Assembly: GCA_964533935.1 (NCBI GenBank)
Contig: CAZHOG010000001.1
Coordinates: forward strand, 35,702-99,701
Direction: 5' to 3'
Length of the DNA: 64,000 bases
Source of the DNA: an uncultured Muribaculaceae bacterium
GTDB lineage: Bacteria; Bacillota_I; Bacilli_A; RF39; UBA660
Position numbers and translations under genes: made by a program. Shown here piece after piece: positions 6,311 to 64,000 of this stretch (position 1 is the first letter of the stretch; each line of letters starts with the position of its first letter). The notes under the pieces were generated by a model. The model worked only from the letters and a program-made list of their open reading frames with translations, had not been told where the DNA came from and ran no database searches.

Positions 6311-6646
6311 TTACGAAAACATTTTTTTAATTACTTTACCTATTTTTCCTATGCCTTCAGTCAAAAATTTTTCTAAAGATAAGGAAACTTCATCACCTAA
6401 TTTACTGGCAGTATTAGAATAATCAATATTATTATCTTGAGAATATTGTTTAATATCAATATTTCGGTTATTTTTTACATCCTCTTCAAATTTAGCAATA
6501 TTTTCATCAGTTAAAACAATTTTATTATTCGTTTGATTTTCATAATAACCACTTTCACCAGCTATATATAAACTTATATATAATATAAATAGAATAAATA
6601 ATATTCTTAAAACAGGATTACTCTTTTTCTTTTTCATTATCTTCAT
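6311..6646 (-). CDS. YqxA-like small membrane-anchored protein
   Basis: It has an N-terminal TM segment and sits between spoIIP and lepA, as yqxA does in Bacillus. The call rests on synteny only. Confidence 0.35.
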   Translation of the reverse strand: MKIMKKKKSNPVLRILFILFILYISLYIAGESGYYENQTNNKIVLTDENIAKFEEDVKNNRNIDIKQYSQDNNIDYSNTASKLGDEVSLSLEKFLTEGIGKIGKVIKKMFS

Positions 6647-14549: not shown

Positions 14550-16613
14550 TTAGCATCTTTTTACTTTTTTATTAATTTTATAGCAAATTGAATTATCAAT
14601 TTGTGTATTTAAATAAGGAATATTCAATTTATTAAGTAGATTTATGATTTCAGTTGATGGATGATTATAGCGATTATTCTTCCCACTACTAATAATTCCT
14701 ATTTCAGGTTTAATTGTTTTATAAAAATCCTCATTATAACTATTTTTAGACCCATGATGAGGAATTTTAATGTAATTTGATATCTTAATCCTAGAAATAA
14801 GTTTATTCATTACAGAGCTTGGAATATCTCCTGTATAAGTAAAATACTTTCCTCTAATATTTATATTAAAAACTAAGCTAGATTCATTTTCATCATTGCT
14901 AATATAATCATTTAAATTTTTAATATCAATTAACCTAGAATGATAGTAATTAATAACTACATTATTTTTAATTAAATCTTCTTCTAAATCATTCTTTTGA
15001 TTAAAGTTAATCATTATTTTATTAACCTTAAATTTATTAATTATACTTTGAGCATTTCCAATATGATCATAGTCACCATGACTCAAAGCTAATAAAGAAA
15101 TATTATCAATAGCTAAACTTTTTAAAAATAGGATTATATTATAAGCTTGATCATAATTTTTTCTTTTTAATTTCCAAGATTCAGTCTTATAAGACATATA
15201 GCCACCCGTATCTATCATGATTACATCTTTTTGCTTCGGCGTAATAATAACTGAACAATCCCCTTGCCCAACATTTAAATAATAAACATAATAGTTTAAA
15301 TCTAGTTTATATTTCAATATAGTTACAAAGAAAAATAACATAATGATTAATATAATTCTTTTTGTATAATGATTTAACATAAGCAATATGTAATATATAA
15401 ATATTGTAAAAAGTAATGGCTTACCAGTAATAATATTTATACTTAAATTACTAAGCAATTTATTTAATAGTATTAATAAATTAATAAAAATACCTAATAC
15501 AGGTTCTAAAAACTTAATAAAATATGATAGCAAAGTTACTGGGAAAATCAGAAAAGAAACTAAGGGAACAACAATAATATTAACAATAATGCTAAAAATA
15601 TTGATTTCAAAGTTATTATATAATGTTATAGGCATAGATAAAGCAAAAGCAAATACTGCTAACGAAATAAAATTTTTAGGTTTAATATACATTAATCCAA
15701 AAGTAATAATATATGAATACTGAAAACCAACATCAAATATTATAAATGGATTTAAAAATATAAATATCATTGCTGTTATTATTAATAATTTTATATCACA
15801 TATATTTTTAAAAATACTTTTTAATATCAGAAATACGACTACCCTACATACGGATGGTGTAACTGAAACTAAAAAAGAATAAAGAATTAAAATTATATAT
15901 ATAATTTTTTTATTTATTCTAAATTTCGATAATACAAGAACTATTAATGAAATATGCATCCCTGAAATAGCAAATAAATGAACAATTCCATTATTTTTAT
16001 ACAAGTTATATTCTTCATCTGCCAAATAAGTTTTATCGCCTAAGATAAACAAACTATAATATTCTTTGTATTTCCTGTTAGAAATACTAAAGTAAATTTT
16101 ATTTTTAATTTTATAAAAAATATTGCATTTACTATTTAATTCATATTTAGTTGTATTCATAATAAGATATATTTTTTTAGTATTTAAATATTTTTTATAA
16201 TTAAAAGTGTTTGGAATACTATTAACAGCTGGTTCTTCAAATGAACCAGTTATTTTTATAGTTGATCCGAGTACTAAAGATTTTTTTAAATTTATTTGTT
16301 CTTCCTCAGACGATATTGTATAATTAGCAATAATTTTTTCTTTATTTTTTAATAACAGAGATAGCTTATTTCCATTAATGTCATATTTCAATATTTTCCC
16401 AGTAAATTCAGTCACATTATAATTGATTTTTGAATAATTAAAAAAATTATAATTTATAAAGACATATATAATAGTTAATAATATAGCAATAACATAAAAT
16501 ATATTAGATTGTAATATTATCTTTAATTTTTTCATATAGTGCATCCCCAAATCCATTAACATTCTTAATTTCATCGATTGATTTAAATGGACCGTTTGCA
16601 TTTCTATATTCAA
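14550..16613 (-). CDS. comEC: Competence protein ComEC/Rec2 (DNA internalisation channel with a metallo-beta-lactamase domain)
   Basis: It has a polytopic membrane core and a C-terminal MBL domain (SHGDYDHIGN ... HHGS). The likely true start is the internal MHYMKKLKII (~16535-16544), which overlaps the comEA stop. Confidence 0.85.
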   Translation of the reverse strand: MNIEMQTVHLNQSMKLRMLMDLGMHYMKKLKIILQSNIFYVIAILLTIIYVFINYNFFNYSKINYNVTEFTGKILKYDINGNKLSLLLKNKEKIIANYTISSEEEQINLKKSLVLGSTIKITGSFEEPAVNSIPNTFNYKKYLNTKKIYLIMNTTKYELNSKCNIFYKIKNKIYFSISNRKYKEYYSLFILGDKTYLADEEYNLYKNNGIVHLFAISGMHISLIVLVLSKFRINKKIIYIILILYSFLVSVTPSVCRVVVFLILKSIFKNICDIKLLIITAMIFIFLNPFIIFDVGFQYSYIITFGLMYIKPKNFISLAVFAFALSMPITLYNNFEINIFSIIVNIIVVPLVSFLIFPVTLLSYFIKFLEPVLGIFINLLILLNKLLSNLSINIITGKPLLFTIFIYYILLMLNHYTKRIILIIMLFFFVTILKYKLDLNYYVYYLNVGQGDCSVIITPKQKDVIMIDTGGYMSYKTESWKLKRKNYDQAYNIILFLKSLAIDNISLLALSHGDYDHIGNAQSIINKFKVNKIMINFNQKNDLEEDLIKNNVVINYYHSRLIDIKNLNDYISNDENESSLVFNINIRGKYFTYTGDIPSSVMNKLISRIKISNYIKIPHHGSKNSYNEDFYKTIKPEIGIISSGKNNRYNHPSTEIINLLNKLNIPYLNTQIDNSICYKINKKVKRC

Positions 16614-17292
16614 TAATTGCTATTGCTTTGGATTCTCCTACTCCAGATATTTTCATTAACTCTTCTTTGTTAGAATTATTTAATGATATTTTTTTAGATT
16701 CCGATTCAGTAGTTTTATCATTAGATGGTATTAATGACGTTCCTTCTTTTGTTTCAGAAATAACACTAGCATTATTTTCAATACAAGAAGTAATATTATA
16801 ATCTGAAGATACACATTCGCTTTCACTTTCTTTACCTATTTGTTTTATTTCACTTTTAGTATAAATTTTAATTACCATTTGATCAGTAACTTTTTTACTT
16901 AAATTTATATTACTAGTATCAGCATTTTTAGTTAAACCTCCAGCTAATTTTATTAAATCATTAATATTTGTATTAACATTTATTTTATAAACTCCTGGTT
17001 TTTTAACTGCACCTTTTAAATCTACAGAAATTTCATTATTATCTTCCATTTCAATGTCACTATCATCTTTTTTATCACTATCCAATACTTGATTAGCAAC
17101 ATCACTTTTATCATTAAAATCTCTATAAATTAATACACATATTCCTGAAATCAAAAATATTAATAATAAGACACAAATAATATTAAAATAGTAATCAAAA
17201 ATGTTTTTTATTTTATTTATTTTTATCACCTCCTCTAATAGTCTTATACAAGAAAAATTTGTTATTTCCTTTTTTATCATAAAAAAATACAA
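16504..17292 (-). CDS. comEA: Competence protein ComEA (helix-hairpin-helix DNA receptor)
   Basis: It has an N-terminal TM segment, a SLBB-like region, and C-terminal tandem HhH motifs (LMKISGVGESKAIAIIEYRNANGPFKSIDEIKNVNGFGDALYEKI). Confidence 0.8.
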   Translation of the reverse strand: MYFFMIKKEITNFSCIRLLEEVIKINKIKNIFDYYFNIICVLLLIFLISGICVLIYRDFNDKSDVANQVLDSDKKDDSDIEMEDNNEISVDLKGAVKKPGVYKINVNTNINDLIKLAGGLTKNADTSNINLSKKVTDQMVIKIYTKSEIKQIGKESESECVSSDYNITSCIENNASVISETKEGTSLIPSNDKTTESESKKISLNNSNKEELMKISGVGESKAIAIIEYRNANGPFKSIDEIKNVNGFGDALYEKIKDNITI

Positions 17293-17309: not shown

Positions 17310-18458
17310 TTATATTTCTTGTTTATCTTTAGCTAAATTATTTTCTATAGCAACTCTTTGAACAACTGCTAATAATACCAAAATATTTATTGTAAAACTT
17401 CCACCATAACTTAATAATGGTAACGGAACACCAGTCAATGGTATTACTGCTAAGCTACCTAAAAAATTAATCGTTAAATGTAAGATAATTAAAGCAAATG
17501 TTCCGTATGCCAGTATTGCTCCTCGAATTGTTTGAGAGTTCTTAGCTATTTTTACAATTCGATATAGCATAATTATATAACCAATTATTACAAATATTCC
17601 TGCAACTAATCCTAATTCTTCAACCAAAATCGCGAAAATAAAATCAGTATGAGCTTCAGGCAAATATAAATATTTTTGAGTTGAATTGCCAAGACCTACA
17701 CCAAAAACTCCACCATTATGCATAGCAATAAATCCATTACATACTTGATATCCAGTATCTTCTTTATACCTTGAGCAAGGAGCTTTATATTTAAAACGAG
17801 CCATTTGTGTTGAATTAAACAATTCTCCACCAGTATTTACAAAAACGACTAATCCTAAAATTCCAGCAATAGCAATATACTTTAATAATTTCATTAAATT
17901 ATTTTTTTCAAATGGTACTATTAAAAAAACTAAAAATACAATTCCAGCGATAATTACAGCTCCACCAAAGTCTGGTTGCATGGCTGTTAAAATAAACATT
18001 ACAAACCCTACTGCAATAGGAACTAAATTCATATATATATTTTGTTTCTTCTTTTTCAAAGCTCGATTATAAAATACAGCCATATAAACTATTATTATCG
18101 ATTTAGCAAACTCTGTCGGTTGTAAATTAAAAAATCCCAAATTATACCAACTTTGTGCTCCATTAGAAATTTTTCCATAAACAAACAAACCTGCTAATGC
18201 TACTAATATTCCAATTACTAAAAATGGAGTAAAATATTTGTACTTACTAGTTGGTAATCTCAATATAACGAAATAACTAGCTAAAAATGATACTATAATA
18301 AAAAGTAATTGTCTTATAAAGAAATAATATGTAGAAACATGATATCTCAATACTGCAGATACAGAAGATGCACTAAGAATCATTATAAGTCCTAATACAG
18401 AATATAATATTGTAAGAAATAATAATGGTTTATCCATTTTGCTAAATAATTTCTTCAT
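17310..18458 (-). CDS. SEDS-family peptidoglycan polymerase (FtsW/RodA/SpoVE)
   Basis: It has about 10 TM helices and the conserved SEDS C-terminal region (PLTGVPLPLLSYGGSF). Confidence 0.85.
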   Translation of the reverse strand: MKKLFSKMDKPLLFLTILYSVLGLIMILSASSVSAVLRYHVSTYYFFIRQLLFIIVSFLASYFVILRLPTSKYKYFTPFLVIGILVALAGLFVYGKISNGAQSWYNLGFFNLQPTEFAKSIIIVYMAVFYNRALKKKKQNIYMNLVPIAVGFVMFILTAMQPDFGGAVIIAGIVFLVFLIVPFEKNNLMKLLKYIAIAGILGLVVFVNTGGELFNSTQMARFKYKAPCSRYKEDTGYQVCNGFIAMHNGGVFGVGLGNSTQKYLYLPEAHTDFIFAILVEELGLVAGIFVIIGYIIMLYRIVKIAKNSQTIRGAILAYGTFALIILHLTINFLGSLAVIPLTGVPLPLLSYGGSFTINILVLLAVVQRVAIENNLAKDKQEI

Positions 18459-18823: not shown

Positions 18824-19309
18824 TTATTTGCTAAGCAAAGTAACATCTGGTTCACTATCACAATTTGTACTTGCTGCAGCCGCTTTTGCAGTTATGTTTG
18901 AACTAGTTACATCAGGAACTGCACCAGAAACTGCATAATTATTATTAGAAAGCCATATTTTATAATCAGCTTTGCCTGAAGAAGGAGTAATCGTGATTAA
19001 AACACTTCCATTATAATTATCATCATTTTTTTCCAAAAAGCCATTTGTTAAATAACCATATGTTATACAAATTTTATTTTTAACTGGAGTATTAGCCATT
19101 ACTGCATCAGCATATGCAGTTTGTGCTGCTCTAATTATTTCATTTGCTTCTACAGCGAATGAATTCTTTCTAGCTTTTTCCATTGAACTTAAAACAGCAG
19201 GCATTGCAATTAAAATAATAATTGCTAATACAACAATAACTGCTAATAATTCTACTAAAGTAAATCCTTTCTTGTTATTTTTTACGTTTAATTTTTTCAT
19301 AACACTCAC
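18824..19309 (-). CDS. Type IV pilin (prepilin with a class III signal)
   Basis: It has a basic leader followed by the G|FTLVELLAVIVVLAIIILIA prepilin peptidase site with Glu at +5. The mature protein is ~146 aa and has 2 Cys near the C-terminus. Confidence 0.8.
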   Translation of the reverse strand: MSVMKKLNVKNNKKGFTLVELLAVIVVLAIIILIAMPAVLSSMEKARKNSFAVEANEIIRAAQTAYADAVMANTPVKNKICITYGYLTNGFLEKNDDNYNGSVLITITPSSGKADYKIWLSNNNYAVSGAVPDVTSSNITAKAAAASTNCDSEPDVTLLSK

Positions 19310-24660: not shown

Positions 24661-25956
24661 TTATAATTCATCAGCTGATATTGTAATAACTGGGCGAACT
24701 CCAAAATTATTAGGATTATAATAATATATATCATAATAAAACTTACCGTTTTTATTAATACGCCAAGCACTTGAAGTATCATAAGAAGACATAGTCCAAT
24801 ATGATGTTGAGAAAATAAACGTAGGGGCTAATGTACAAGATTCATTGCTTGAGGAACATCCTAAAGTTTCTAATTCTTCTTTTGTTATAAGACTTGCATT
24901 ATTTATTGTCGCTCCCAATAATTCTAATTTTGTTTTATATGTATTTACATATCCTTCAACTATACTTCCTGTGTAATCGCTATAATTTATTCCCTTTTTT
25001 TCATCTGTTGAAAATGCTGTTCCACCATTTCTTAAATCTTGAACAGATACATATCCTAACATTGTGCTATCTTGTATTCCAGTTGCTTCAGCCCCATAAG
25101 CAGTATAAGTACTTGTCGAATTATCATACGTTCCGCCAACATACAAATTATATTGAGCTAATGCTTTAATATTCGTACCATCATTTGATATAACATAAAA
25201 ACTTTCTGTATCAAAAGTAATTAAATCACCAATATCAGCAATTCCATTGTTATTTTCATCATTTGTTAATTTCCATGATTTATTTAAAATACTTGAACTT
25301 GTTGTTGAAGTAACTAATATTTTTGCTTCAAAATTTTGATTCATTGTAGAAGGATCTTCAACAGATTCATCTACCCATAAATATAGAGCATATGACTTAG
25401 ATTCTCCTGCTTTAACTGCCAATGTATTATCTTCATTCATAGTAGCTGCTTTTAAGCTTCCTGTTGTCAAAATATAAGAGTTTGCAATCGTAAATGTATT
25501 ATTGTTTGCATCAGTATATTCGTAATTAGTATAATCATCATATTTTTTTTGCGAAGAAACCAATGATGGGCCAGTAACATTATTTGATTCATCAACTAAT
25601 TCAAAATCAATTAATGGTTCTAAAACACTTGAACCATTGGTATTTAATGTTACATTATAATTCATATCTATTGAGCAATTATTTGTAATAGATAAAGAAT
25701 AAGGTGATTTACTTAAAGCTTCTGTTTCTGTCATTGGATATGTATTTTGTAAATTAATTGAATTACCACTTTCACTTAATTGAAAAGAGAAGCATCCTGA
25801 ATTAATTTCATTTGTATCAGTTTGACTATAATTTTTTTGCCAATAAGCATATGTAATGCCAGTAATTAATACTGCTACTAATAAAAATACTAAAACGCTC
25901 ATTAAAGTAATTCCAACTATATTTGTTTTCTTCATTTTTTTTATAAAGTTTTCCAT
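24661..25956 (-). CDS. Secreted protein with a TasA/camelysin-like N-terminal domain and a SipW-cognate-type signal peptide (paralog A)
   Basis: The N-terminal TM segment is followed by GITYAYWQKN. This parallels the TasA/CalY GGTWAAFND motif and the SipW-cognate consensus. The protein is Ser/Thr/Asn-rich and extracellular. Its C-terminal Cys-containing domain (LGCSSSNESC ... TSSAWRINKNGK) is shared with the gene at 53239..54132. Confidence 0.55.
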   Translation of the reverse strand: MENFIKKMKKTNIVGITLMSVLVFLLVAVLITGITYAYWQKNYSQTDTNEINSGCFSFQLSESGNSINLQNTYPMTETEALSKSPYSLSITNNCSIDMNYNVTLNTNGSSVLEPLIDFELVDESNNVTGPSLVSSQKKYDDYTNYEYTDANNNTFTIANSYILTTGSLKAATMNEDNTLAVKAGESKSYALYLWVDESVEDPSTMNQNFEAKILVTSTTSSSILNKSWKLTNDENNNGIADIGDLITFDTESFYVISNDGTNIKALAQYNLYVGGTYDNSTSTYTAYGAEATGIQDSTMLGYVSVQDLRNGGTAFSTDEKKGINYSDYTGSIVEGYVNTYKTKLELLGATINNASLITKEELETLGCSSSNESCTLAPTFIFSTSYWTMSSYDTSSAWRINKNGKFYYDIYYYNPNNFGVRPVITISADEL

Positions 25957-27654: not shown

Positions 27655-28635
27655 TTACTTATCTCCTTCTTCTAACATAGTAGTAATAAATAAACCATAG
27701 CCTGTTTTAACTTTATCAACTACAACATGCGTTACTACACCACATATTTTATCATTTTGAACAATTGGGCTGCCTGACATTCCCTGAACAATTCCACCAG
27801 TTTCATTCAATAGTTTTTCATCAGTTATTTCAAAGCTTAAATTTTTTACTTTACTATTTTTATTTATCTTTGTAATATTTATTTCAAATTTTTCTTTATT
27901 TGTATCATTTAATACAGTATAAATATATGCCTTTCCCAATGAAATTTCATCTTTAGATGCAACCTCTATTAAACTTGAAGTATCTATTTCGCTTTTATAA
28001 TCACCAAATATACCATAAATAGTATTTTTATTTATAGTACCAAATTTATTTTTAGAATTAAATTTAGCATTTTTTTCTCCTGGACTTCCATCAATTGATT
28101 TATCAATACCTGTTATTGAACTCTCAAATATGTAACCAGTTTTTACTTCAATTCTTTTATTTGAATTACTTTCTATTATCTCATGTCCCAAACTTCCATA
28201 TATTTTCGTTTCAGGATCAATATATGAAATTGTACCAATTCCTTTGATATTATCTTTAACATATAAACCAGTTTTATAAATTCCGTTTTCACTATATAAA
28301 TGTAGTGTTGAAGTGATTTCTTCATCATTTCTTTTTATAATCAGCTCTATTTTATTATCTATTATATTTTTTTCTATAGCATTTGTAAGTTCATTTATAG
28401 AACTAATTTTTGTATCTCCAACTTGAGTAATTAAGTCCCCTACTTTTAATTCATTACTCCCTTTATTTAAAGTACCATTAACTTTATAAAATCCAATAAT
28501 TATAACCCCATTGTTTTCTATATTTATACCTATATTTTGGCCACCTAAAACTACTTTACTAGAATATGCAAAGACATTAAAAGGCAACAATAATGCCACA
28601 AATAATGAGACTATTTTATACTTAATATTTTTCAT
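27655..28635 (-). CDS. SpoIVB-like S55 serine peptidase with a PDZ domain
   Basis: It has a signal peptide, a PDZ-like region (VGDLITQVGDTKI) and the catalytic-serine motif GGIVQGMSGSPIVQN..CGVVTHV. That motif is typical of the sporulation peptidase SpoIVB. Confidence 0.65.
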   Translation of the reverse strand: MKNIKYKIVSLFVALLLPFNVFAYSSKVVLGGQNIGINIENNGVIIIGFYKVNGTLNKGSNELKVGDLITQVGDTKISSINELTNAIEKNIIDNKIELIIKRNDEEITSTLHLYSENGIYKTGLYVKDNIKGIGTISYIDPETKIYGSLGHEIIESNSNKRIEVKTGYIFESSITGIDKSIDGSPGEKNAKFNSKNKFGTINKNTIYGIFGDYKSEIDTSSLIEVASKDEISLGKAYIYTVLNDTNKEKFEINITKINKNSKVKNLSFEITDEKLLNETGGIVQGMSGSPIVQNDKICGVVTHVVVDKVKTGYGLFITTMLEEGDK

Positions 28636-43416: not shown

Positions 43417-45150
43417 CTAATTAACTTGATAAAAATCTAAAATTGATTTTGCAATATTATTGGCTATCTCTTTTGAATTATCTACAATCCATTTTGCATC
43501 TAAAGAATTATCATGGTATGCAACTTCAATTAATGTGCCACACTTAATGAAAGAATCATTTGCTTCTCCCAATGAGCCATCAGAATATTTAACTCCTCGA
43601 TCAGTTATTTTTTCACGATACGGATAAATTTCATATAAATTATTATAAATATTTGATGCAATAGATAATGCTTTTGAAGTCGACTTATCAACGTATATTT
43701 CCATCCCTTGTATGTCATGATTACTACTTGCATTAGAATGCAAAGCAAGATGCAAATCGCTCTTATGATTGTTGCTTTCTGCTAGCCATAAATTAATATT
43801 ACCACTTGGATTATTTCTATAAACCTTTACCCCAGCATTTATTAGATCTTCATATAAATAATCGGCAACTTTATTCATCATATCACGTTCATTTGTATAA
43901 CCTACTGATGAAACACCTTTATTTCCAAATTGATTAGATGGTGAAAGATATACAACTAATTGCTTATCTGATATTTTAAATTCATAAGTATTAATATCAC
44001 TGTCATTCATATTTTTTTTAACAGCATATGTTTTTATAGTAGTATTTTCATTAATAGTAATTTTATCATTATAAACATTACTATTAATAGTTGGTTTAGA
44101 TCCATCTAAAGTGTAATAAATAGTTGCATTTTCAGTATTAGTTAATAAAGAAATAGAACTTCCTGCTTTAATATTATTTGGATTTTTATCAACATAAACA
44201 GGTTTAACAGTTTGTTTATCTAAAACAGAAATATTTAATATTGCCGTTTTACCTATCTCATCATAATCATCATATAAAGCTTTAAATTCAACTTTATAAT
44301 CGTTATTTTCTTTAAATTCAGATGCATCAAGAATTATATGTTCTTTTGGAAAAGATAATTTTTTAGAACTAACAATTTTATCTTTTTTATCATAAATATT
44401 AATTTGCATTGTCGTAGCATTATTTCCACCCTCAAAATAAATATCTAAATCATCCCAATTCATAACAAAATTATCACTTGGGCTTAGTATTTTAAAATTA
44501 CCAATTATTGGTGTATTTAAATAAAAATTAAATAAAGAAATTGCTCTATCATCTTTATTATATAATTTTGCAGTTACTCTGCCACTATAATTTTTAATAG
44601 AATCATAATTCAAAACAACAGTATCATTTGAAACATCATAATTACCAATATTACTACCTCTATAATATAATTTAACATAATATTCTTCATCACTTTTAGC
44701 ACCTAAAATATTCAAAGTAATGTCTTTAAAATCATTAGCAAAATAATTTTTTTCTTTATTAAAAGATGCATCTAGATTTTTATATTTATAAACATTATTT
44801 GAATTTTTTATTTCATTCTTTTTACTTTTAGTATAAACATTAATTGAAACGGTTTGCTCATAATTCATCATTAAATCACTTATATCAATTTTATTAGAAG
44901 AAGATTTTTTTTCATAAATAACATTATTTTTTTCATCTTTCACTTCTACATTATATGACTTGGCATTATAACATTTAGATACATTTAAAATTAAACTATC
45001 TTTTTGAGTTTGAATTCCTATGATATTAAAGGAACTTAATTTTGGAAATTTATAATAGATAAAACCAAGTATGAAAAAAGCCAATGATATTGCAATCATA
45101 ATCATTAAACAAAATACAATCGGTTTATTAATATCTTTTCTTAATCTCAT
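43417..45150 (-). CDS. Membrane-anchored N-acetylmuramoyl-L-alanine amidase (Amidase_3 family) with Ig-like and Fn3-like repeats
   Basis: It has an N-terminal TM segment and repeated beta-sandwich regions that include a chitobiase/hexosaminidase-C-like motif (ATIYYTLDGSKPT). The C-terminal Amidase_3 motifs are LALHSNASSNH and EVAYHDN. Confidence 0.7.
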   Translation of the reverse strand: MRLRKDINKPIVFCLMIMIAISLAFFILGFIYYKFPKLSSFNIIGIQTQKDSLILNVSKCYNAKSYNVEVKDEKNNVIYEKKSSSNKIDISDLMMNYEQTVSINVYTKSKKNEIKNSNNVYKYKNLDASFNKEKNYFANDFKDITLNILGAKSDEEYYVKLYYRGSNIGNYDVSNDTVVLNYDSIKNYSGRVTAKLYNKDDRAISLFNFYLNTPIIGNFKILSPSDNFVMNWDDLDIYFEGGNNATTMQINIYDKKDKIVSSKKLSFPKEHIILDASEFKENNDYKVEFKALYDDYDEIGKTAILNISVLDKQTVKPVYVDKNPNNIKAGSSISLLTNTENATIYYTLDGSKPTINSNVYNDKITINENTTIKTYAVKKNMNDSDINTYEFKISDKQLVVYLSPSNQFGNKGVSSVGYTNERDMMNKVADYLYEDLINAGVKVYRNNPSGNINLWLAESNNHKSDLHLALHSNASSNHDIQGMEIYVDKSTSKALSIASNIYNNLYEIYPYREKITDRGVKYSDGSLGEANDSFIKCGTLIEVAYHDNSLDAKWIVDNSKEIANNIAKSILDFYQVN

Positions 45151-49064: not shown

Positions 49065-49535
49065 TCACTTTTTTAATTTAATTTGCACACATTTTACACA
49101 TTTAACGATTAATTGTTGATTTTTATCACGCTTATCACACGTTATTAAATATAAAAGATCCTTTTCTTCCTTTTCTAAATTCATATAGCCATTCTTTTTT
49201 ATATAATACTTTTTTGCTACCAAATACTTTATCTTTCTATTGTTAATAATTAATGTGACTTTATCATTAATATTAATCAAATCTAAATTCTTAAAAAAAG
49301 AAATCTTTGAGTTTCCTGAATGCGCAGCCAAGAAATATAAATCATTAATATAATCACTCTCTTTTAATAAAATAATATTTTTATTAATTGAAGAATATTT
49401 ATATGAAACAATAATTTGTTTTAAACCAATACTTTCGATTATTACTTCATTATTATACGTTACATTATTTTGACTTTGATAGTATGAAGTAAAGTTTAAA
49501 ACTAATCCAATAATTAAAATTATAATTTTTTTCAT
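49065..49535 (-). CDS. Compact sortase-like membrane-anchored protein (putative transpeptidase)
   Basis: It has an N-terminal TM anchor, a His-motif-like YFLAAHSGNS and an active-site-like LYLITCD (the TLxTC motif). It is short for a sortase (156 aa), and the conserved Arg position is unclear. Confidence 0.35.
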   Translation of the reverse strand: MKKIIILIIGLVLNFTSYYQSQNNVTYNNEVIIESIGLKQIIVSYKYSSINKNIILLKESDYINDLYFLAAHSGNSKISFFKNLDLININDKVTLIINNRKIKYLVAKKYYIKKNGYMNLEKEEKDLLYLITCDKRDKNQQLIVKCVKCVQIKLKK

Positions 49536-53238: not shown

Positions 53239-54473
53239 CTATAGTTTATTTATTTCAATCAAAGCTTTACCAAATGTTGTATTACCACAATTATTATTGT
53301 AATATCCATCACACCCTGAAAGGTTTGGAGCTAATCTATTACTTTTATCTATTCTCCAAGCACTTGTAGTATCAGTAGATTTAGCATTCATTGTCCATAT
53401 ATTTTCTCCATTATTTATCCATTTTGGACAACTATCAGCTGTTTCACTACATCCTAATTTAGCTGCTTCTTGGACAGTAATAATTCTTGCTAAAACATTA
53501 TTTTTTTCAAGATTATAAGTGTTACTTGAACAAATATTATAATTTGAACAACCCGTATATTTATTAGTTGCAAATACTGTAGTACCCATGTTGTATGACA
53601 TTGCATTAACATTACTCCAAGAAGATGTACTAGACTCTATTGCATTTAAAACTCCATAAGGCCCATTTGCAGTACTTGAATTATTAACATTTGACCATGA
53701 AACATTACTAGTAGTATTTTCAATTTGCTGAATTCTCATTGTCTCACCATCATCAAATAAAACATTAAAAGCTTTTTCGGCATTTTCATTTACTTCATAA
53801 AGAATAATTGTACCAGCTTTACAGCTATTAGCATCAAGATTACGATAGCATTTAGTTACTTCACATGTTTCTTCACTACCATTAACACAATAAGTACTAG
53901 ACGTGCTATCGTCATTGTAATTATATGCTGCTACTATATTTTTATTTTTAACAGCTACTTTATCAGCACTTTCATTATCTATTCCTAAAGTTCCTTCAAA
54001 ACTACATCCTTGACTATTTTGTTCTTCATCTTTATTAACAAATGTTATCTCCATTGAATAATTTTCTATGGTATTTGCTGGAATATCTAATTCATATAAA
54101 ATATATGTTCTTCCATCTTTCGTAACTGGCATTTTTCTCGTGCCAGTGATTAAATCTTCACCATTTTTATAGTATATACCAAATCATCATTAAATGTATT
54201 TATTATCCCATCAATATAAATATTAAATTTCATATCAATGTTATTAGTATTTTCTACACTAAATGTTTTAATAAATGATTGACCAGGTAGTATTCCTTCA
54301 ACATCTATTTCAGCCTCTCCTGTAAAAACTAATTCTAAGTTCCCGGCTTTAACAATAGTTTTAGTTTTATTAATTTCTTGAATTTTTGCAGTAAAATACG
54401 AAAAAGTAACTCCTAAAGCAATAACTAAAAATATAACAATAATTGATAAAGCAGTAATAATTTTTTTACTCAT
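53239..54473 (-). pseudogene. TasA/camelysin-like secreted protein gene (paralog B) disrupted by a frameshift
   Basis: ORF 54150..54473 (signal anchor plus the TasA-like motif GVTFSYFTAKIQEINKTKTIVKAGNLELVFTG) and ORF 53239..54132 are consecutive parts of one protein in two frames. I judged this by alignment to the 60078..62339 product. The frame switch maps to the A5/T5 tract at 54164-54168. The C-terminal domain is shared with the 24661 paralog. Confidence 0.55.
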
Positions 54474-56812: not shown

Positions 56813-57745
56813 ATGAAAAGTGTGAATGAAATTGAGGAACCAATAGTTGAAAAGCTATTTAACAGTTATAAATATAACTTAAAAAATGCAAGATTAAATG
56901 CTAATGAATTACATGAATATTATAATAGCCAAGTAAATCATCATCAATTACTTACTGAAAAAATATATAATTTAAGAATAATAGATGATTCAAAATATGA
57001 GGTATTAAAACCTATTTGTTTTAATTACGAAACTAACGAATATACATTAAATATGCATTATATAGTGGTTGATTTTTACAAAAAGCATCAAGGTGAAGAG
57101 CAAATATCAATATATGAATTAAATATTCTATTATTAGAATATATTAATAAAATAATCGCTTCAGTTGAATTAAGACGTGGAATAAATAATAATATACTAT
57201 ATAAAAAAGAATCAGAGTTTTATACATATTTAGTTAATGAATACATTGATCCTAGTATTAAATCAATTGTAAGAACAAATTATAATAATATTAGAAAAAT
57301 GCAATTAACATCACATATTATTGATAAATGTACTATGGAATATGGTTTAAATCCATTTGCAAAATTAAACTATGTTCAAAAAATTAATAAGTATATTTAT
57401 AAAAAATTCTTTAATAACGAATATGAATGTCCATCTATGAATGCAAAAGAAAATGAAACTACTTTCTTTAAAATGAGTGATAAAGGATATTTTATTGATA
57501 TAAACAGAAATAAAATGAAACAAACACTTGGAAATGATGTACCTAGCAAATTCGAATATGCCGTTAATCATCAAATGAAACAAAAACCACTTCCTGATCA
57601 AAACTTATTAGATGCTTTATTATATGGAAAAATGATTAATAATGATGTTAAAAATATTATATTAAAAGATGTAATAAATAATATGTCTATAATAGATTAT
57701 GCAGAAGGAACCACTCCATCAAATAATAACATACTTGCAAAATAA
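56813..57745 (+). CDS. Hypothetical protein
   Basis: A 310-aa cytosolic-looking ORF. It is the only plus-strand gene in this 10-kb stretch. No motif was recognised. Confidence 0.4.
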   Translation: MKSVNEIEEPIVEKLFNSYKYNLKNARLNANELHEYYNSQVNHHQLLTEKIYNLRIIDDSKYEVLKPICFNYETNEYTLNMHYIVVDFYKKHQGEEQISIYELNILLLEYINKIIASVELRRGINNNILYKKESEFYTYLVNEYIDPSIKSIVRTNYNNIRKMQLTSHIIDKCTMEYGLNPFAKLNYVQKINKYIYKKFFNNEYECPSMNAKENETTFFKMSDKGYFIDINRNKMKQTLGNDVPSKFEYAVNHQMKQKPLPDQNLLDALLYGKMINNDVKNIILKDVINNMSIIDYAEGTTPSNNNILAK

Positions 57746-59155: not shown

Positions 59156-60013
59156 TTATTGCCTTTTTAAAGTTAATTTATTTTTATTCTTATAGAAATT
59201 CTTTTTACTAGAAATTTCTTCTATTAATGATTTGATTAAAACACTTTTATTTTTATTTTTAATTACTATATTTAAATATTTATCTCCAAATTTATAACTA
59301 GCTTGAGTATAACAAATAATACTATACATAAGCATTATAATATTCTTATTTTCTTCATCTATTTCTAATTTATTGCAATATTCATCCAATGATAAATTTT
59401 CTTTTGAGGCTTTTTCTATTAATGAATAAATAATTTCTATATTAAAATGATCAAAAACGTCAAAATCAAAATTATCTTCTTCAAAATCAAATGTTTCTTT
59501 TCTATTTAATTCTGATGTTCTAGAAATTTCATTTAATATTCCAGAAAAATCATATGGTTTTTCAGTATTTTTAGAAATCATATCTGCTAATTGAAAAAAC
59601 TGATAAGCATTATCATTATCACCAATATAATAATAACAAAATGCAATACTTGCACAAATGTATGCATTTGGTTTATTAAAGAAAGAAAATATTTTAAGAT
59701 ATCCATCTAAAGCCTTTTTATAATTCTTTTTATAAAATAAAATATTAGATTCTTTATAAATTTTTGATGCCAAATTTCTATCTTCAACTATTTCATTATA
59801 TTTCAAAACAATCTTTTTATTAGTTCCATCATCAATGGTAAAAGCATTGATATTATCCTTTTCATGAGCAACTTTATAGAATAATTTTCTGTCTTTAGTA
59901 TTTTTTGCTTCAAATAATATAAAACTTTTATTATCTATTATATATTCACAACAACTATCAAAAAAATCCATATTTTCCATGCAATCACTTCTCTCGTAGA
60001 AAATATAATACAA
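59156..60013 (-). CDS. Hypothetical protein (possible TPR-like helical repeats)
   Basis: A 285-aa ORF with no confident motif. The central region has TPR-like Tyr/Ala spacing (KALDGYLKIFSFFNKPNAYICASIAFCYYYIGDNDNAYQFF). Confidence 0.35.
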   Translation of the reverse strand: MYYIFYERSDCMENMDFFDSCCEYIIDNKSFILFEAKNTKDRKLFYKVAHEKDNINAFTIDDGTNKKIVLKYNEIVEDRNLASKIYKESNILFYKKNYKKALDGYLKIFSFFNKPNAYICASIAFCYYYIGDNDNAYQFFQLADMISKNTEKPYDFSGILNEISRTSELNRKETFDFEEDNFDFDVFDHFNIEIIYSLIEKASKENLSLDEYCNKLEIDEENKNIIMLMYSIICYTQASYKFGDKYLNIVIKNKNKSVLIKSLIEEISSKKNFYKNKNKLTLKRQ

Positions 60014-60077: not shown

Positions 60078-62339
60078 CTATTCCCATGTAAATATTGGAT
60101 ATCCGTTATTTACATTATTACTATCATTTTTGAAAGCTGATCCCAATGTTGCGGATATTTTTTTCATATTTTCATTTGATGTTGAACCGACAGAATTTTT
60201 TGTAGGAGTTACAGCGTATTGAGTACTAGAATTTAAATAATAATTATTATTTATATTAACGGATTTAATAGTATTCCCCTGTAATCCTAATATTGCACCA
60301 ACATATTGATTATTAACTTCAGAAACATTTCCAACATTATAATTATTATATAAACTTAATGCCATTCCAGCATCATTATCAAAATTTGCAACTATTCCTC
60401 CAGCATCCATACCAGATGCAGTTATACTTCCCATATTATAATTATTATATATTTTTACTAATGAATCTCCTGGATTGTTCCACATATTTGCAACTATTCC
60501 AGCAATATGACCGTACCCAGAAATTTCGCCAACATTTTTATTTTCATAAACATTTAAAGTTTCAGTTAACGTACTTATATTGGCTATTATTCCCCCACAT
60601 CCGTAATTATTTGAATTTGAAATACTAATTGTTTTCTTATTTATATTTTTATTAACATTTATATTTTTTGAAGCAAAAATTCCACTTATTATACCTGAAG
60701 CTCCAGAATTCTTAGCAACTATTATTCCATTATTTATATTTTGACTAACAGTTACTGAATTAGCATTATTTATATATGCAAGTATTCCTGAAGAATATTG
60801 ATTATTAGCAGTAATTTTAGCATTATTAACATTATTTTTCATAGTTAAATTAGAAATATTAATATTATATGCTAAAATTCCACTCGCAAAAGTATTTGCT
60901 ATAATTTCACCATTATTTGTGCAATTCTCTATTAAAACATTATCTGAATTATTACTGTTTGCAACTATTCCACTTGCAGTATTTGCTTCACTTTTGATTA
61001 CTGCATTGTTAATTGAATTTCTAATAATAGAATTAGTTCCAGCATACCATACTAATCCTGCCGCATCATCTCCTGAAGTTTTTACTGAAATATTATTAGT
61101 ACAATTTTCAATTGTTCCATATAGTTTTTGAACAAGACCAGCAGAAGTTTTACTTGCTGTTATTTCACCATCAATTGTTAAATTTTTTATAACAGATTTG
61201 TTATCTATAGATGTAAAAAATGCTTGAGCTGAAGAATCAGGTTTGTTTATATAGATTCCACTAATTTTTTTATTATTTCCATCAAATATTCCACTATAAT
61301 TTTCAATTGGTACCCATTGGTTTGAATTTGAACCGTTTAAATTAATATCATTTATTAATTTAACATTAACTGAATTATTAGTTTTTATTTTTTCTTTAAA
61401 CCAATTGATATCATTTATACCTCTAATTTCATAAATATTATTATTAGAAACAGGTTCTAAATATTTTAAATCAGCCATTATCTTTAAATAAAAATTATTA
61501 TTTGCTAACAATTTAATGTTATCAGAATTAGCTTGCCTTTCATTATTCATAATGGTAATTTCATATGTATCATTTTCATCCGCTTTTAATAGTTGACTTT
61601 TTATAAAATAATCATCATTTATATTTTGATTTTCTAAAATGGTCAATCCATTTTTTGATAAATTATACGTTAAATTATTCCCATATTCATTTTCAATACT
61701 TCCAAATTTAAGATTATAAATTTTATCTTGATTAGTTACATTTGAAACTTCAAAAGATACGTTTTTAGAATTGCCACTAGTAAAATTTGAAATTGAAATT
61801 TCATCAGATGATACCACTATAGAATTAATTTTTTTAGTATCAACGCCTAAAGTTGCACTAAATATTTTACCTTGTAAATTATTTTGATCAGTATCACTAT
61901 TTTTAAATGTTATTTTTAATATATATGACTTAATTTTCCCCGCCTCAATAGTAATATTTGTATTAATATAAGTTTTTCCAGTAACACTATTTGGCGTCTT
62001 TCTCTCAGATATTATTTTTCCAGTTTCATCAGCTAATTCATATACTAAATCTTCATTAAATTCATTTGTAATATTTTCCATATAGATATTATAATCTACT
62101 GCTATATTACTTGTATTCTCTACTGTAAATGTTTTAGTAAATGAATCTCCAGGAACTATTCCAGATACATTTATTTCTTGTCCACCTGTATATGTTAAAG
62201 TTAATTTATTTGTTTTAACTACTGTTTGTGACTCATTTATTCTATTTACATTGGCACTATAGAATGCATATGTTACACCCGCTACAAGAGCTACTACTAC
62301 AAATATACTTGCTACTATTAATACTATTTTTTTCTTCAT
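60078..62339 (-). CDS. Large secreted protein with a TasA/camelysin-like N-terminal domain and a long array of GLUG repeats (beta-helix) (paralog C)
   Basis: Its N-terminus (VALVAGVTYAFYSANVNRINESQTVVKTNKLTLTYTGGQEINVSGIVPGDSFTKTFTVENTSNIAVDYNIY) parallels the TasA signal and mature N-terminus (GGTWAAFND ... NLKPGDKLTKDFQFENNGSLAIK). Residues ~380-700 hold repeated ~22-aa units ending in xSGI(V/L)A or AGGIVAN, which is the GLUG motif. Confidence 0.6.
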   Translation of the reverse strand: MKKKIVLIVASIFVVVALVAGVTYAFYSANVNRINESQTVVKTNKLTLTYTGGQEINVSGIVPGDSFTKTFTVENTSNIAVDYNIYMENITNEFNEDLVYELADETGKIISERKTPNSVTGKTYINTNITIEAGKIKSYILKITFKNSDTDQNNLQGKIFSATLGVDTKKINSIVVSSDEISISNFTSGNSKNVSFEVSNVTNQDKIYNLKFGSIENEYGNNLTYNLSKNGLTILENQNINDDYFIKSQLLKADENDTYEITIMNNERQANSDNIKLLANNNFYLKIMADLKYLEPVSNNNIYEIRGINDINWFKEKIKTNNSVNVKLINDINLNGSNSNQWVPIENYSGIFDGNNKKISGIYINKPDSSAQAFFTSIDNKSVIKNLTIDGEITASKTSAGLVQKLYGTIENCTNNISVKTSGDDAAGLVWYAGTNSIIRNSINNAVIKSEANTASGIVANSNNSDNVLIENCTNNGEIIANTFASGILAYNINISNLTMKNNVNNAKITANNQYSSGILAYINNANSVTVSQNINNGIIVAKNSGASGIISGIFASKNINVNKNINKKTISISNSNNYGCGGIIANISTLTETLNVYENKNVGEISGYGHIAGIVANMWNNPGDSLVKIYNNYNMGSITASGMDAGGIVANFDNDAGMALSLYNNYNVGNVSEVNNQYVGAILGLQGNTIKSVNINNNYYLNSSTQYAVTPTKNSVGSTSNENMKKISATLGSAFKNDSNNVNNGYPIFTWE

Positions 62340-62400
62340 ATTACCAACTCTATTCTCATATTTATTTTAGCAAAAAATTAGCAATTAAAAAAGAGTAAAA

Positions 62401-64000
62401 CTATTTTTCTACTCTTTTTACATCAATATAAGTATCATGACCATTTAAATCAAAAATATCTTTTAAACCTTCAGTTTTTTCAATATTTATTGATAAAGTT
62501 TCTTTTTTAATAAAATCTTCAAATTTACTAACTGCTTTATCAACTACATTATCTGAAGAATAATATAAATTAATACGATCAACAATATTAAATTCTTTTT
62601 CTTTTCTCATATTTTGAACTTTTGAAATCATCTCACGAGCAATACCTTCAAGAATTAAATCTTCAGTTAAGTTTGTATCTAAAATTATAAAGTTATCATT
62701 TTCTGTAGCAACATTAAATCCTTCTTTAGAATTCACTCTAATGTCAACTAATTCTTTATTAATTTTATATTCTTGATTATTTACCTCAATAGTGATTTCT
62801 TCATCATTTTGTAATTTCTTTATATCGTCTAAATCTAATTTAGCTAAAGTATCAGAATACATTTTTATATTAGCCCCAAATATAGGTCCAGCAACTTTAA
62901 AATTAGGTTTTAACATATATTCCATGTAATTAGCTGTATCATCAATAAATAATACTTTTTTAACATTTAATTCTTCTTCTATTAGAGATACTAAATCACT
63001 AATTAAAGATTCATGTTTTTTATCAATTAATACTTCACTAATTGGTTGTCTAACTTTTACTTTTGATTCTTCTCTAACATTTCTTCCTAAAGATATTAAA
63101 TCTCTTACTAAATCCATTCTTGATTCTATAACTTCATCAATTAATTTATCATCACAAATTGGATAATCTGCTAAATGAACAGATTCTAAACCAGTTAATT
63201 TAGTATAAATTTCATCTGATATAAATGGTGCCATTGGAGCAATTAATTTACAAATTCCTACTAATATTTCATAAGTTGTTTGATAAACAGCTTTCTTACT
63301 ATTATCTAAGTCACTTGCCCAGAATCTTCTTCTGTTTCTTCTTATGTACCAATTTGATAAATCTTCAGCAACAAAATTACTTATGAATTTAACCGCTTTA
63401 TTTAAATCATATTCTTCCATTGATTCAGTTACGTTTTTAACTAATCTATTATATTTAGAAATTAACCATTTATCAATTTCTTCTAAATCTTTATATTCGA
63501 TATTATATTCTCTTGGATCAATACTATCTGCATTTGCATACATTTCAAAGAATGTATATGTATTTTTTAATGTATTGAAGAATTTAGAATTTACTTCTTT
63601 AATTCCATCTTCATCAAATTTAAGTGGTGTCCAAACAGGAGATGCTGAAAGCATATACCATCTAGTAGCATCAGCACCATATTTTTCTATTGTAGCAAAT
63701 GGAGAAACTGAATTACCTTTAGATTTATGCATTTTTCCACCAAATTTATCTAATACTAAATCATTTACTAAAACATTTTTATATGGAGCACATCCTTTTA
63801 AGAATGTTGAAATTACGATTAATGAATAGAACCAACCTCTTGTTTGATCAATTCCTTCACAAATAAAATCTGCTGGAAATTGATTTTCAAATAATTCTTT
63901 GTTTTCAAATGGATAATGATATTGTGCAAATGGCATAGAACCTGAATCAAACCAGCAATCCATAACATCTTTAACACGAGTCATTGCTTTACCACATTTA
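62401..64000 (-). CDS. ileS: Isoleucine--tRNA ligase, C-terminal ~530 aa. The gene continues beyond the window end.
   Basis: It has the class I aaRS KMSKS motif (KMHKSKGN) preceded by DCWFDSGSMP. A long anticodon-binding C-terminal region follows, consistent with IleRS type 2. The true start lies upstream, outside the window. Confidence 0.65.
   Translation of the reverse strand, partial: KCGKAMTRVKDVMDCWFDSGSMPFAQYHYPFENKELFENQFPADFICEGIDQTRGWFYSLIVISTFLKGCAPYKNVLVNDLVLDKFGGKMHKSKGNSVSPFATIEKYGADATRWYMLSASPVWTPLKFDEDGIKEVNSKFFNTLKNTYTFFEMYANADSIDPREYNIEYKDLEEIDKWLISKYNRLVKNVTESMEEYDLNKAVKFISNFVAEDLSNWYIRRNRRRFWASDLDNSKKAVYQTTYEILVGICKLIAPMAPFISDEIYTKLTGLESVHLADYPICDDKLIDEVIESRMDLVRDLISLGRNVREESKVKVRQPISEVLIDKKHESLISDLVSLIEEELNVKKVLFIDDTANYMEYMLKPNFKVAGPIFGANIKMYSDTLAKLDLDDIKKLQNDEEITIEVNNQEYKINKELVDIRVNSKEGFNVATENDNFIILDTNLTEDLILEGIAREMISKVQNMRKEKEFNIVDRINLYYSSDNVVDKAVSKFEDFIKKETLSINIEKTEGLKDIFDLNGHDTYIDVKRVEK

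What the first reader, a model, noticed from the sequence alone, without database searches (positions are those of the whole stretch)
60078..62339. A 753-aa fusion of a TasA-like domain to a long GLUG-repeat beta-helix
The C-terminal ~320 aa consist of 13 or more degenerate ~22-residue repeats. Examples are ASGIVANSNNSDNVLIENCTNNGEIIA, NTFASGILAYNINISNLTMKNNVNNAKITA, and HIAGIVANMWN / DAGGIVANFDN. These match the GLUG motif known from IgA1 protease-like and adhesin proteins. I do not know of a described architecture that combines a TasA/camelysin-type N-domain with a GLUG beta-helix. The protein could be a fibre-anchored adhesin or a matrix component. The repeat DNA (60300..61300) is also a candidate site for recombinational length variation.
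Basis: partly seen in the sequence, partly recalled or inferred. Interest (0 to 1): 0.65.

Follow-up and report, generated by a model that had tools for sequence, protein, structure and literature searches.

The report
TasA-like stalk carrying GLUG-type beta-helix head
This gene encodes a secreted surface or matrix protein of an uncultured spore-forming gut Firmicute, in which a biofilm-fibre (TasA-type) module carries a large beta-helix "head"; the domain combination is rare, but both domains are known types.

Summary
The 753-aa ORF at 60078..62339 (-) is real.

**N-terminal part.** Residues 1-292 form a TasA/camelysin-type signal peptide followed by two tandem TasA-like domains. The evidence is a Pfam PF12389 hit above cut-off, TasA as the best solved-structure sequence match, and NCBIfam TasA/BsaA hits.

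**C-terminal part.** Residues 296-753 fold with high confidence (pLDDT 94) into a capped parallel beta-helix of about 12 rungs. Its closest solved relatives are IgA1-protease-type beta-helices. Its sequence homologues carry Pfam GLUG.

- The repeat period is about 31 aa, not 22.
- The protein does not reach the GLUG threshold (best single repeat 14.6 bits against 20.5).
- The DNA has no tandem or long exact repeats, so recombinational length variation is unsupported.
- The architecture is rare but not unique. One other cluster, P0234, has the same N-module plus a GLUG helix.

**Family context.** The N-module belongs to a multi-copy family in uncultured gut Bacilli that carries interchangeable heads (GDSL esterase, DUF285, Flg_new, DUF6273, Gly-rich). 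A frameshifted copy lies 6 kb away.

**Likely role (inferred).** A binding head displayed on a TasA-like, possibly donor-strand-polymerising, stalk.

The parts
60078..62339 (-). Complete ORF, 753 aa plus stop codon
   Evidence: ORF listing. It is not on record as an exact product in the assembly index.
62265..62339 (-). Signal peptide, aa 1-25 (MKKK, a hydrophobic core, then VTYA|F). The proposed cleavage after A25 is by analogy with TasA TWA|A.
   Evidence: PF12389 matches aa 1-82 to profile positions 2-79. NCBIfam TasA model NF046066 matches aa 1-89 at E 3.8e-7. The family consensus is G-x-S-Y-A-Y-Y-S-A. The cleavage site itself is inferred, not shown.
62205..62264 (-). Conserved N-terminal segment of the mature protein, aa 26-45 (FYSANVNRINESQTVVKTNK). 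It corresponds in position to the TasA donor strand.
   Evidence: The family profile aligns positions 34-80 with residues 5-52 of mature TasA chains 8aur_A and 5of1_A. The TasA donor strand is residues 28-38 (PMC9674648). A29, T39 and L46 are nearly invariant across 49 family members.
61830..62204 (-). TasA-like beta-sandwich domain 1 (about aa 46-170)
   Evidence: About 157 homologues share aa 1-172 at 45-65% identity. 23 of 25 members pass PF12389. The two best PDB sequence hits are both TasA.
61464..61829 (-). TasA-like domain 2 (about aa 171-292). It is an internal duplicate of the domain-1 core, without signal peptide or donor segment.
   Evidence: Domain 1 against domain 2 gives 32% identity over 63 aa, E 1e-6. 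Query aa 166-271 aligns to domain 1 of many homologues. Domain 2 is present in only a subset of family members (aa 1-290 matches) and is absent in P0234.
61290..61454 (-). N-terminal cap of the beta-helix, aa 296-350 (strand, alpha-helix NDINWFKEKIKTN, DINL...QWVPI motif)
   Evidence: AF2 model with helix at model residues 13-25. The cap motif is conserved in alignment A4: DIxL...WxPIG...FxGxFDGN.
60234..61289 (-). Parallel beta-helix, about 12 rungs of about 30 aa (aa 351-702). It has 10 clear degenerate GLUG-type repeats (xxG[IL][IV]A... xNxxN).
   Evidence: AF2 with MSA gives mean pLDDT 94.2, pTM 0.94 and three short strands per rung. Repeat register. Foldseek top hits are 3n6z, 6xja_P, 7uvl_P and 6xjb, followed by generic beta-helix enzymes and tailspikes. 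Homologues carry PF07581.
60081..60233 (-). C-terminal cap and tail, aa 703-753, ending ...LGSAFKNDSNNVNNGYPIFTWE
   Evidence: It is conserved at the C-terminus of many GLUG homologues (A4 consensus NxGYPILxW; P0130 is 55% identical over aa 725-753). Model pLDDT is about 90 or higher across this cap, apart from one block of about 59.
53239..54473 (-). Second member of the same N-module family, with a Cys-rich head, interrupted by a frameshift in an A-run near 54162-54168
   Evidence: phmmer hits to the query N-domain: E 2e-28 (54153-54473) and 3.6e-9 (53242-54183). The intact homologue P0287 aligns in two frames. Sequence.

Best explanation
**Shown.** The gene encodes an exported multidomain protein with these parts:
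- a TasA/camelysin-type N-terminal signal peptide;
- a conserved N-terminal segment;
- two tandem TasA-like beta-sandwich domains;
- a capped parallel beta-helix of about 12 rungs, of the divergent GLUG / IgA1-protease NTD2 type.

It has no HExxH motif and no LPXTG sorting signal. The N-module belongs to a multi-copy family in uncultured low-GC gut Bacilli whose members carry different C-terminal heads.

**Inferred.**
- After Sec export the signal peptide is cut after A25, by a SipW-like or general signal peptidase.
- The TasA-like module serves as the attachment and stalk part. The most likely mechanism is TasA/TapA-style donor-strand complementation of the freed N-terminal strand into a neighbouring TasA-like domain, either of itself or of a paralogue.
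- This would hold the beta-helix away from the cell as a non-catalytic binding (adhesin or matrix-linking) head.
For: **ORF and domain limits.**

**TasA-type N-module.**
- PF12389 scores 32.8 bits against a 22.5 cut-off.
- 23 of 25 family members pass PF12389, and 32 of 49 at E<=1e-4.
- NCBIfam: the TasA model hits 9 of 25 members and the BsaA SipW-dependent model hits 8 of 25.
- A family profile searched against 177,635 PDB sequences gives TasA (8aur_A, 5of1_A) as the top two hits. The alignment is colinear and includes the PGD..K.F..EN and QN.YQG motifs.

**Beta-helix.**
- The AF2 model has pLDDT 94.2 and pTM 0.94.
- The best fold matches are the IgA1-protease-type helices 3n6z and 6xja/6xjb/7uvl/7uvk.
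- C-domain homologues at E down to 1.6e-18 mostly carry PF07581.
- GLUG is the only Pfam family hit by isolated repeats.

**No catalytic or sorting motif.** No HExxH, only one His in the whole protein, no LPXTG.

**Modular family.** Heads include GDSL, DUF285, DUF6273, Flg_new, ALK_LTK_GRD and LRR. Genomes carry several copies, including a second copy in this window.

**Literature context.**
- TasA polymerises through its N-terminal donor strand, and TapA is proposed to donate the first strand (PMC9674648).
- The archaeal TapA-like protein AbpB is proposed to start the filament, with its distal domains acting as adhesins. The ABP system lacks a dedicated SipW (PMC9245690).
- The IgA1-protease NTD2 beta-helix is a non-catalytic gating and substrate-contact domain (PMC9637739).
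Against: - The TasA-type matches cover mainly aa 1-90. The PDB profile E-values are marginal (0.023 and 0.039).
- The fold of domains 1 and 2 was not verified. The only full-length model was single-sequence, with pLDDT 44.5, and its fold search was meaningless.
- No signal peptidase gene and no tapA-like gene was found among the ORFs of at least 120 aa in the 64-kb window. Family members sit as solo genes among housekeeping genes.
- The NCBIfam SipW-cognate signal model did not hit the query and hit only 1 of 25 members.
- No short, head-less 'major subunit' was identified with certainty.
- Polymerisation, cleavage and any ligand are all untested.
- The Foldseek TM-scores to IgA1-protease helices are low (0.24-0.31).
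Confidence: 0.55

Rival explanations
1. Membrane-tethered surface protein. The N-terminal hydrophobic segment is an uncleaved signal-anchor. The two TasA-like domains are a passive, non-polymerising spacer that lifts the beta-helix above the wall.
For: - There is no dedicated sipW or tapA in the window.
- There is no LPXTG motif, although a sortase lies nearby, so another anchor would be needed.
- Many GLUG-helix homologues use a different N-terminal membrane/pilin-like segment (KGITLIALV...), which suggests the helix is generally displayed from an N-terminal anchor.
- Family genes are solo genes.
Against: - The residues just after the hydrophobic core (SYAYYSA..N.T.TVIKTN.L) are strongly conserved and align with the TasA cleavage site and donor strand. 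That is unexpected for a simple anchor.
- T-Y-A at positions -3 to -1 fits a type I signal-peptidase site like TasA's T-W-A (sequence; PMC9674648).
- Archaeal TasA-like systems also lack a dedicated SipW (PMC9245690).
Confidence: 0.25
2. Secreted or displayed enzyme. The beta-helix is a catalytic polysaccharide lyase, glycosidase or depolymerase-like domain rather than a binding head.
For: - Lower-ranked fold matches are PL6 lyases, GH110/GH87 glycosidases, lacto-N-biosidases and phage tailspikes.
- Other members of the N-module family carry enzyme heads (GDSL/SGNH hydrolase).
Against: - The best matches (3n6z and the IgA1-protease NTD2) are non-catalytic helices (PMC9637739).
- No CAZy-type or lyase Pfam family hits even at E<=10.
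- Sequence relatives are GLUG proteins with no known catalytic function.
- Matches to enzymes have E of 0.02 or higher and TM 0.2-0.4.
Confidence: 0.12
3. Camelysin-like or IgA1-protease-like protease, as the Pfam family name 'Peptidase_M73' and the IgA1-protease fold matches might suggest.
For: - PF12389 is named after a metalloprotease.
- The top fold hits are annotated IgA1 proteases.
Against: - There is no HExxH motif and only one histidine in the whole protein.
- No M26 catalytic or middle domains are present.
- The matched part of IgA1 protease is the non-catalytic NTD2 helix (PMC9637739).
Confidence: 0.03

Closest known systems
TasA / BsaA / camelysin family (Pfam PF12389; B. subtilis TasA, PDB 5OF1, 8AUR)
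   Same: - The signal peptide has a conserved T-aromatic-A motif.
- A conserved N-terminal strand region follows.
- The PGD..K.F..EN and QN.YQG motifs are present, in colinear alignment.
- The Pfam hit is above the gathering score.
   Different: - The domain core is about 125 aa, against about 230 aa in mature TasA.
- It is duplicated in tandem and followed by a 458-aa beta-helix.
- There is no tapA-sipW-tasA operon.
- Fibre formation is untested.
TapA (B. subtilis) and archaeal AbpB, proposed donor-strand initiators with extra distal domains
   Same: The concept matches: a TasA-type N-terminal strand plus additional distal domains that could act as an adhesin or anchor (PMC9674648; PMC9245690).
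   Different: - No sequence relationship to TapA was tested or found.
- No adjacent major-subunit gene is present.
- Here the distal domain is a GLUG-type beta-helix.
GLUG-motif beta-helix of M26 IgA1 metalloproteases (NTD2; PDB 6XJA, 6XJB, 7UVL, 7UVK) and BACOVA_03286 (PDB 3N6Z)
   Same: - The fold is a parallel beta-helix and these are the best PDB fold matches.
- Homologues carry PF07581.
- The repeat G-G-I-V-G...N-C-x-N is retained in degenerate form.
   Different: - The Pfam GLUG threshold is not reached.
- The second Gly of the motif is mostly replaced (ASGIVAN, SSGILAY).
- There is no protease domain.
- TM-scores are low (0.24-0.31).
Pilin-like-N-terminus + GLUG-helix proteins of Clostridia and other Firmicutes (for example P0125, P0127, P0152)
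   Same: - The C-domain is the same, including cap, rungs and the GYPI(L/F)xW tail, at 26-32% identity over more than 400 aa.
- The helix is likewise hung on an N-terminal filament- or anchor-type segment.
   Different: The N-terminus there is a type IV pilin-like methylation motif, not a TasA-type module.
P0234 (669 aa, metagenomic, N-terminally truncated)
   Same: It has the same N-domain family (E 2e-26) followed by a GLUG-type helix.
   Different: It has only one TasA-like domain (no domain 2). Its helix is longer, and overall identity is only 34%.

Membership tests
GLUG motif (Pfam PF07581) | Hit to the Pfam GLUG HMM at or above the gathering score (20.5 bits) | tested here: not met
   There is no hit for the whole protein or the C-domain at E<=10. 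The best single repeats score 14.6 and 10.4 bits.
GLUG motif (Pfam PF07581) | Significant sequence homology to proteins that do pass the GLUG model | tested here: met
   Homologues of the C-domain reach E 1.6e-18 in a database of 5.8 billion sequences, and most carry PF07581. P0121 scores 67 bits and P0125 81 bits on GLUG. BLAST of the query to P0121 gives E 5e-28 over 433 aa.
GLUG motif (Pfam PF07581) | Tandem repeats of about 28-33 aa with G-G-[IL]-[VA]-G followed by an N-C-x-N type ladder | tested here: met
   There are 10 repeats at spacings of 27-34 aa. The motif is degenerate (xSGIVAN, xGGIIAN; IENCTNN, IYNNYNM).
GLUG / IgA1-protease-type beta-helix fold | Parallel beta-helix (solenoid) structure resembling IgA1-protease NTD2 and 3N6Z | tested here: met
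TasA/camelysin (Pfam PF12389, Peptidase_M73) | Pfam hit above the gathering score | tested here: met
   The query scores 32.8 bits against 22.5, over aa 1-82 only. 23 of 25 family members match.
TasA/camelysin (Pfam PF12389, Peptidase_M73) | Jelly-roll / beta-sandwich fold like TasA (5OF1, 8AUR) | tested here: inconclusive
   A profile search of PDB sequences puts TasA first and second, but at E 0.023 and 0.039. The full-length single-sequence model has pLDDT 44.5 and its fold search was uninformative.
SipW-dependent matrix proteins (TasA, TapA, BsaA) | SipW-class signal peptide | tested here: inconclusive
   The motif VTYA|FYSA resembles TasA TWA|AFND. NCBIfam TIGR04088 did not hit the query and hit 1 of 25 members. 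The BsaA model TIGR04090 hit 8 of 25 and the TasA model hit 9 of 25.
SipW-dependent matrix proteins (TasA, TapA, BsaA) | Genetic linkage to a dedicated signal peptidase (sipW) and an accessory protein (tapA) | tested here: not met
   No peptidase S24/S26 was found among the ORFs of at least 120 aa in the window. None was seen next to relatives. The rest of the genome was not visible.
SipW-dependent matrix proteins (TasA, TapA, BsaA) | Polymerisation by N-terminal donor-strand exchange | not testable with these tools
   This needs multimer prediction or an experiment. Only positional conservation of the N-terminal segment was shown.
M26 IgA1 metalloprotease | HExxH zinc site and M26 catalytic domains | tested here: not met
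   There is no HExxH motif and only one His in 753 aa. No M26 Pfam hit was found.
Sortase-anchored surface protein | C-terminal LPXTG-type sorting signal | tested here: not met
   No LPXTG-like motif is present and the protein ends ...GYPIFTWE.

The most novel reading that the evidence does not exclude
The N-module family may be a sortase-independent, modular 'decorated fibre' system of uncultured spore-forming gut Bacilli. In this reading, paralogous subunits share one conserved TasA-type donor strand and beta-sandwich. They co-polymerise, or cap one another. Each presents a different head: a GLUG beta-helix, an SGNH esterase, DUF285/LRR, Flg_new or a Gly-rich domain. One fibre would then display several binding and enzymatic functions. 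The homopolymer-tract frameshift in the neighbouring paralogue could switch heads on and off.
Probability: 0.2. Interest if true: 0.75.

Novelty: new variant of a known kind. Interest (0 to 1): 0.45.

Why it matters
TasA-type fibres are known as simple one-domain matrix scaffolds. A family in which the TasA-type module carries large interchangeable heads would extend donor-strand fibres of Gram-positive bacteria towards the 'stalk plus adhesin' logic of chaperone-usher pili, with no sortase involved. The organisms are abundant but uncultured gut Bacilli whose surface biology is unknown. The finding also shows that the GLUG beta-helix is a portable display head, hung on TasA-like, pilin-like, SLH or Por-tail anchors. 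If the stalk is only a passive spacer, the protein is just one more unusual surface protein.

Tried and rejected
1. **Full-length single-sequence AF2.** The model had pLDDT 44.5. Its Foldseek search gave only meaningless jelly-roll hits with TM about 0.1. Both were discarded.
2. **One MSA covering the whole protein.** I tried to combine N-only and C-only homologues. MAFFT always stacked one set on the wrong half, even with duplicated query fragments as bridges. I therefore modelled only aa 296-753.
4. **Exact-product look-ups.** The query and its closest relative P0001 are not on record.
5. **Repeat number across strains.** Scans of genome contigs and metagenome contigs found no close full-length relative. 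The best hits were N-domain only, 47-61% identical.
6. **DNA-repeat and recombination idea.** Rejected.
7. **Protease reading.** Rejected, because there is no HExxH motif.
8. **P0176 as a second example of the same architecture.** Only its signal motif matches the query's N-family. Its N-domain is not detectably related and gives no TasA hit in the PDB.
9. **Promoter and terminator scan.** The counts were not above chance.
10. **Literature.** No paper in the library contains both 'GLUG' and 'TasA', or 'GLUG' with 'beta-helix'.
Full report
**Observation.** The window carries one long ORF at 60078..62339 on the minus strand, 753 aa with an ATG start, exactly as reported. It lies between the 3' part of ileS (62401..63984) and a 285-aa ORF with no family match. 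Downstream of that come NfeD, an SPFH/band-7 protein, an unknown plus-strand ORF, priA and fmt. The window is about 25% G+C throughout.

**N-terminal half.** Pfam gives one significant family, PF12389 (Peptidase_M73, the camelysin/TasA family), at 32.8 bits against a cut-off of 22.5, covering aa 1-82.

A word-indexed search of 5.8 billion proteins returned 128 relatives. All match only aa 1-172 or aa 1-290, at 45-62% identity. Their C-termini are otherwise different.

Aa 166-271 of the query also align weakly to domain 1 of these relatives. Domain 1 against domain 2 of the query gives 32% identity over 63 residues, E 1e-6. The N-half is therefore a signal peptide plus two tandem copies of one beta-rich domain.

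Further support for the TasA relationship:
- A 25-sequence profile of this module (A1) was searched against all PDB sequences. B. subtilis TasA came first and second (8aur_A E 0.023; 5of1_A E 0.039).
- The alignment is colinear. It covers the region just after the TasA cleavage site, the PGD..K.F..EN motif and, weakly, a C-terminal QN.YQG motif.
- 23 of 25 members pass PF12389.
- NCBIfam's TasA model hits 9 of 25 members and its BsaA 'SipW-dependent biofilm matrix protein' model hits 8 of 25. All scores are far below equivalog cut-offs.

I conclude that the module is a compact, divergent member of the TasA/BsaA superfamily. Its fold was not verified, because the only full-length model was made without an alignment and had low confidence (pLDDT 44.5).

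**C-terminal half.** A separate search with aa 291-753 found 56 relatives (E 1.6e-18 to 9e-4). Most carry Pfam GLUG. P0121 and P0125 score 67 and 81 bits on GLUG and align to the query over more than 400 residues.

The query itself does not reach the GLUG model. There is no hit at E<=10 for the whole protein or the C-domain. Two isolated repeats give only 14.6 and 10.4 bits.

The repeat register is about 31 aa (27-34), with 10 clear units.

An AlphaFold2 model of aa 296-753 was built on a 57-sequence alignment (A4). It is very confident, with mean pLDDT 94.2 and pTM 0.94. It shows:
- an N-terminal cap with one alpha-helix;
- about 12 rungs of three short strands each;
- a C-terminal cap.

Foldseek against the PDB ranks a Bacteroides ovatus 'putative IgA1 protease' solenoid (3n6z, E 3e-5) first. 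The S. pneumoniae and G. haemolysans IgA1 metalloproteases (6xja, 7uvl, 6xjb, 7uvk) are among the best matches. Generic parallel beta-helix lyases, glycosidases and tailspikes follow with E of 0.02 or higher.

In IgA1 metalloproteases the beta-helix (NTD2) is a non-catalytic gating domain (PMC9637739). 3n6z has been noted as distantly GLUG-related (PMC4021314).

The query has no HExxH motif, a single histidine and no LPXTG. The region is a genuine repeat solenoid of the GLUG kind, but a divergent one.

**DNA level.** Tandem Repeats Finder finds nothing with a period near 90 nt. The direct-repeat families are 15-40 nt at 68-94% identity. The longest exact repeat is 17 nt, against 10-17 nt in same-length control slices. 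Repeat units share 44% DNA identity on average. This gives no substrate for slippage or homologous recombination, so the length-variation idea is not supported. It could not be tested across strains either, because no close full-length relative exists in the genome or metagenome collections.

**How unusual is the architecture?** An exhaustive HMMER search of 1.84 billion cluster representatives gave 5303 hits. The top 150 match either the N-module only, or the helix only. The helix-only hits are often giant proteins of 1000-6000 aa with 3-17 matched stretches.

Only one of the top 150, P0234 (669 aa, N-terminally truncated), combines the same N-domain family with a GLUG-type helix, and it lacks domain 2. 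P0176 and P0168 combine a TasA-type signal motif with GLUG repeats. P0176's N-domain, however, is not detectably related to the query's.

No paper in the searchable library mentions both GLUG and TasA. The combination is therefore rare and apparently undescribed, but not unique.

**The family behind it.** Among 49 non-redundant members of the N-module family, the C-terminal heads include:
- Flg_new repeats (5 members);
- DUF285 (2);
- DUF6273 (2);
- GDSL esterase (2);
- an ALK/LTK-type glycine-rich domain (1);
- LRR (1);
- many heads with no Pfam match.

Relatives come from uncultured 'Bacilli bacterium' gut MAGs and an Erysipelotrichaceae MAG, with several copies per genome. They sit as solo genes among housekeeping genes, with no conserved partner genes.

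The window itself holds a second copy at 53239..54473 with a Cys-rich head. It is broken by a frameshift in an A-run relative to the intact homologue P0287.

The helix domain, for its part, is found elsewhere behind type IV pilin-like N-termini, SLH domains and Por secretion tails. Both halves therefore behave as portable modules, one an anchor or stalk and the other a head.

**Mechanism.** Shown: the domain architecture, the homologies and the beta-helix fold.

Inferred:
- The signal peptide is cleaved after A25. VTYA|F resembles TasA's TWA|A.
- The conserved segment aa 26-45 is released. It corresponds in position to the TasA donor strand (residues 28-38; PMC9674648).
- This strand complements a TasA-like sandwich of another subunit or paralogue, as proposed for TapA and for archaeal AbpB. 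AbpB's distal domains were suggested to be adhesins (PMC9245690).
- The beta-helix is thereby displayed as a binding head.

The absence of sipW or tapA from the window weakens membership of the classical operon-encoded system. It does not exclude the mechanism, because archaeal ABP systems also lack a dedicated peptidase.

The main rival is an uncleaved membrane anchor with a passive stalk. An enzymatic helix is less likely, and a protease is effectively excluded.

**Verdict.** The protein is a new variant built from known parts. It is of moderate interest, mainly because it points to a head-swapping TasA-like family in uncultured gut Bacilli.

Noticed in passing
window 53239-54473 (-): A second member of the same TasA-like N-module family, with a Cys-rich head. 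It is split into two frames by a 1-nt shift in an A-run near 54162-54168. The intact homologue P0287 aligns across both frames. It could be a pseudogene, an assembly error or a phase-variable tract.
   Followed up: partly
window 24661-25956 (-): A 431-aa ORF with no Pfam hit. It shares a short stretch (39% identity, E 3e-5) with the Cys-rich head of P0287, that is, with the head of the frameshifted paralogue.
   Followed up: no
proteins P0125-P0170 (homologues of aa 296-753): Many GLUG-helix homologues start with a type IV pilin-like N-terminus (KGITLIALVITIIVLLILAG). P0125 gives a weak N_methyl hit. The same head is therefore also hung on pilin-like anchors.
   Followed up: partly
window 4024-4476, 6618-7559, 17310-18458, 27655-28635, 43417-45150, 49065-49535: The window is chromosomal DNA of a walled spore-former. 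It encodes a SpoIIID-like protein, SpoIIP, FtsW/SpoVE, SpoIVB, an N-acetylmuramoyl-L-alanine amidase and a small sortase. TasA was first described as spore-coat associated, so a spore-surface role for the family is conceivable.
   Followed up: no
window 7689-8981 (+), 14550-17292 (-), 18824-19309 (-): A T2SSE/PilB-type ATPase, ComEC, ComEA and a pilin-like N_methyl protein are present, which are parts of a competence or type IV pilus-like system.
   Followed up: no
window 62387-62419 (-): Seen by eye: a perfect 10-bp AT-rich inverted repeat (AAAAAGAGTA ... TACTCTTTTT) spans the ileS stop codon, just upstream of the gene. It may be a weak terminator. The scanner does not flag it because it has fewer than 3 G-C pairs.
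   Followed up: no
window 59156-60013 (-) and 56813-57745 (+): Two ORFs of 285 and 310 aa flank the NfeD/SPFH pair. Neither has any Pfam match.
   Followed up: no
L016-L018 (relatives of the N-module family): In these loci the family member P0005 lies about 3.5-4 kb upstream of a small gene with a weak N_methyl (pilin-like) hit, and near a rhomboid protease gene. The significance is unknown.
   Followed up: no
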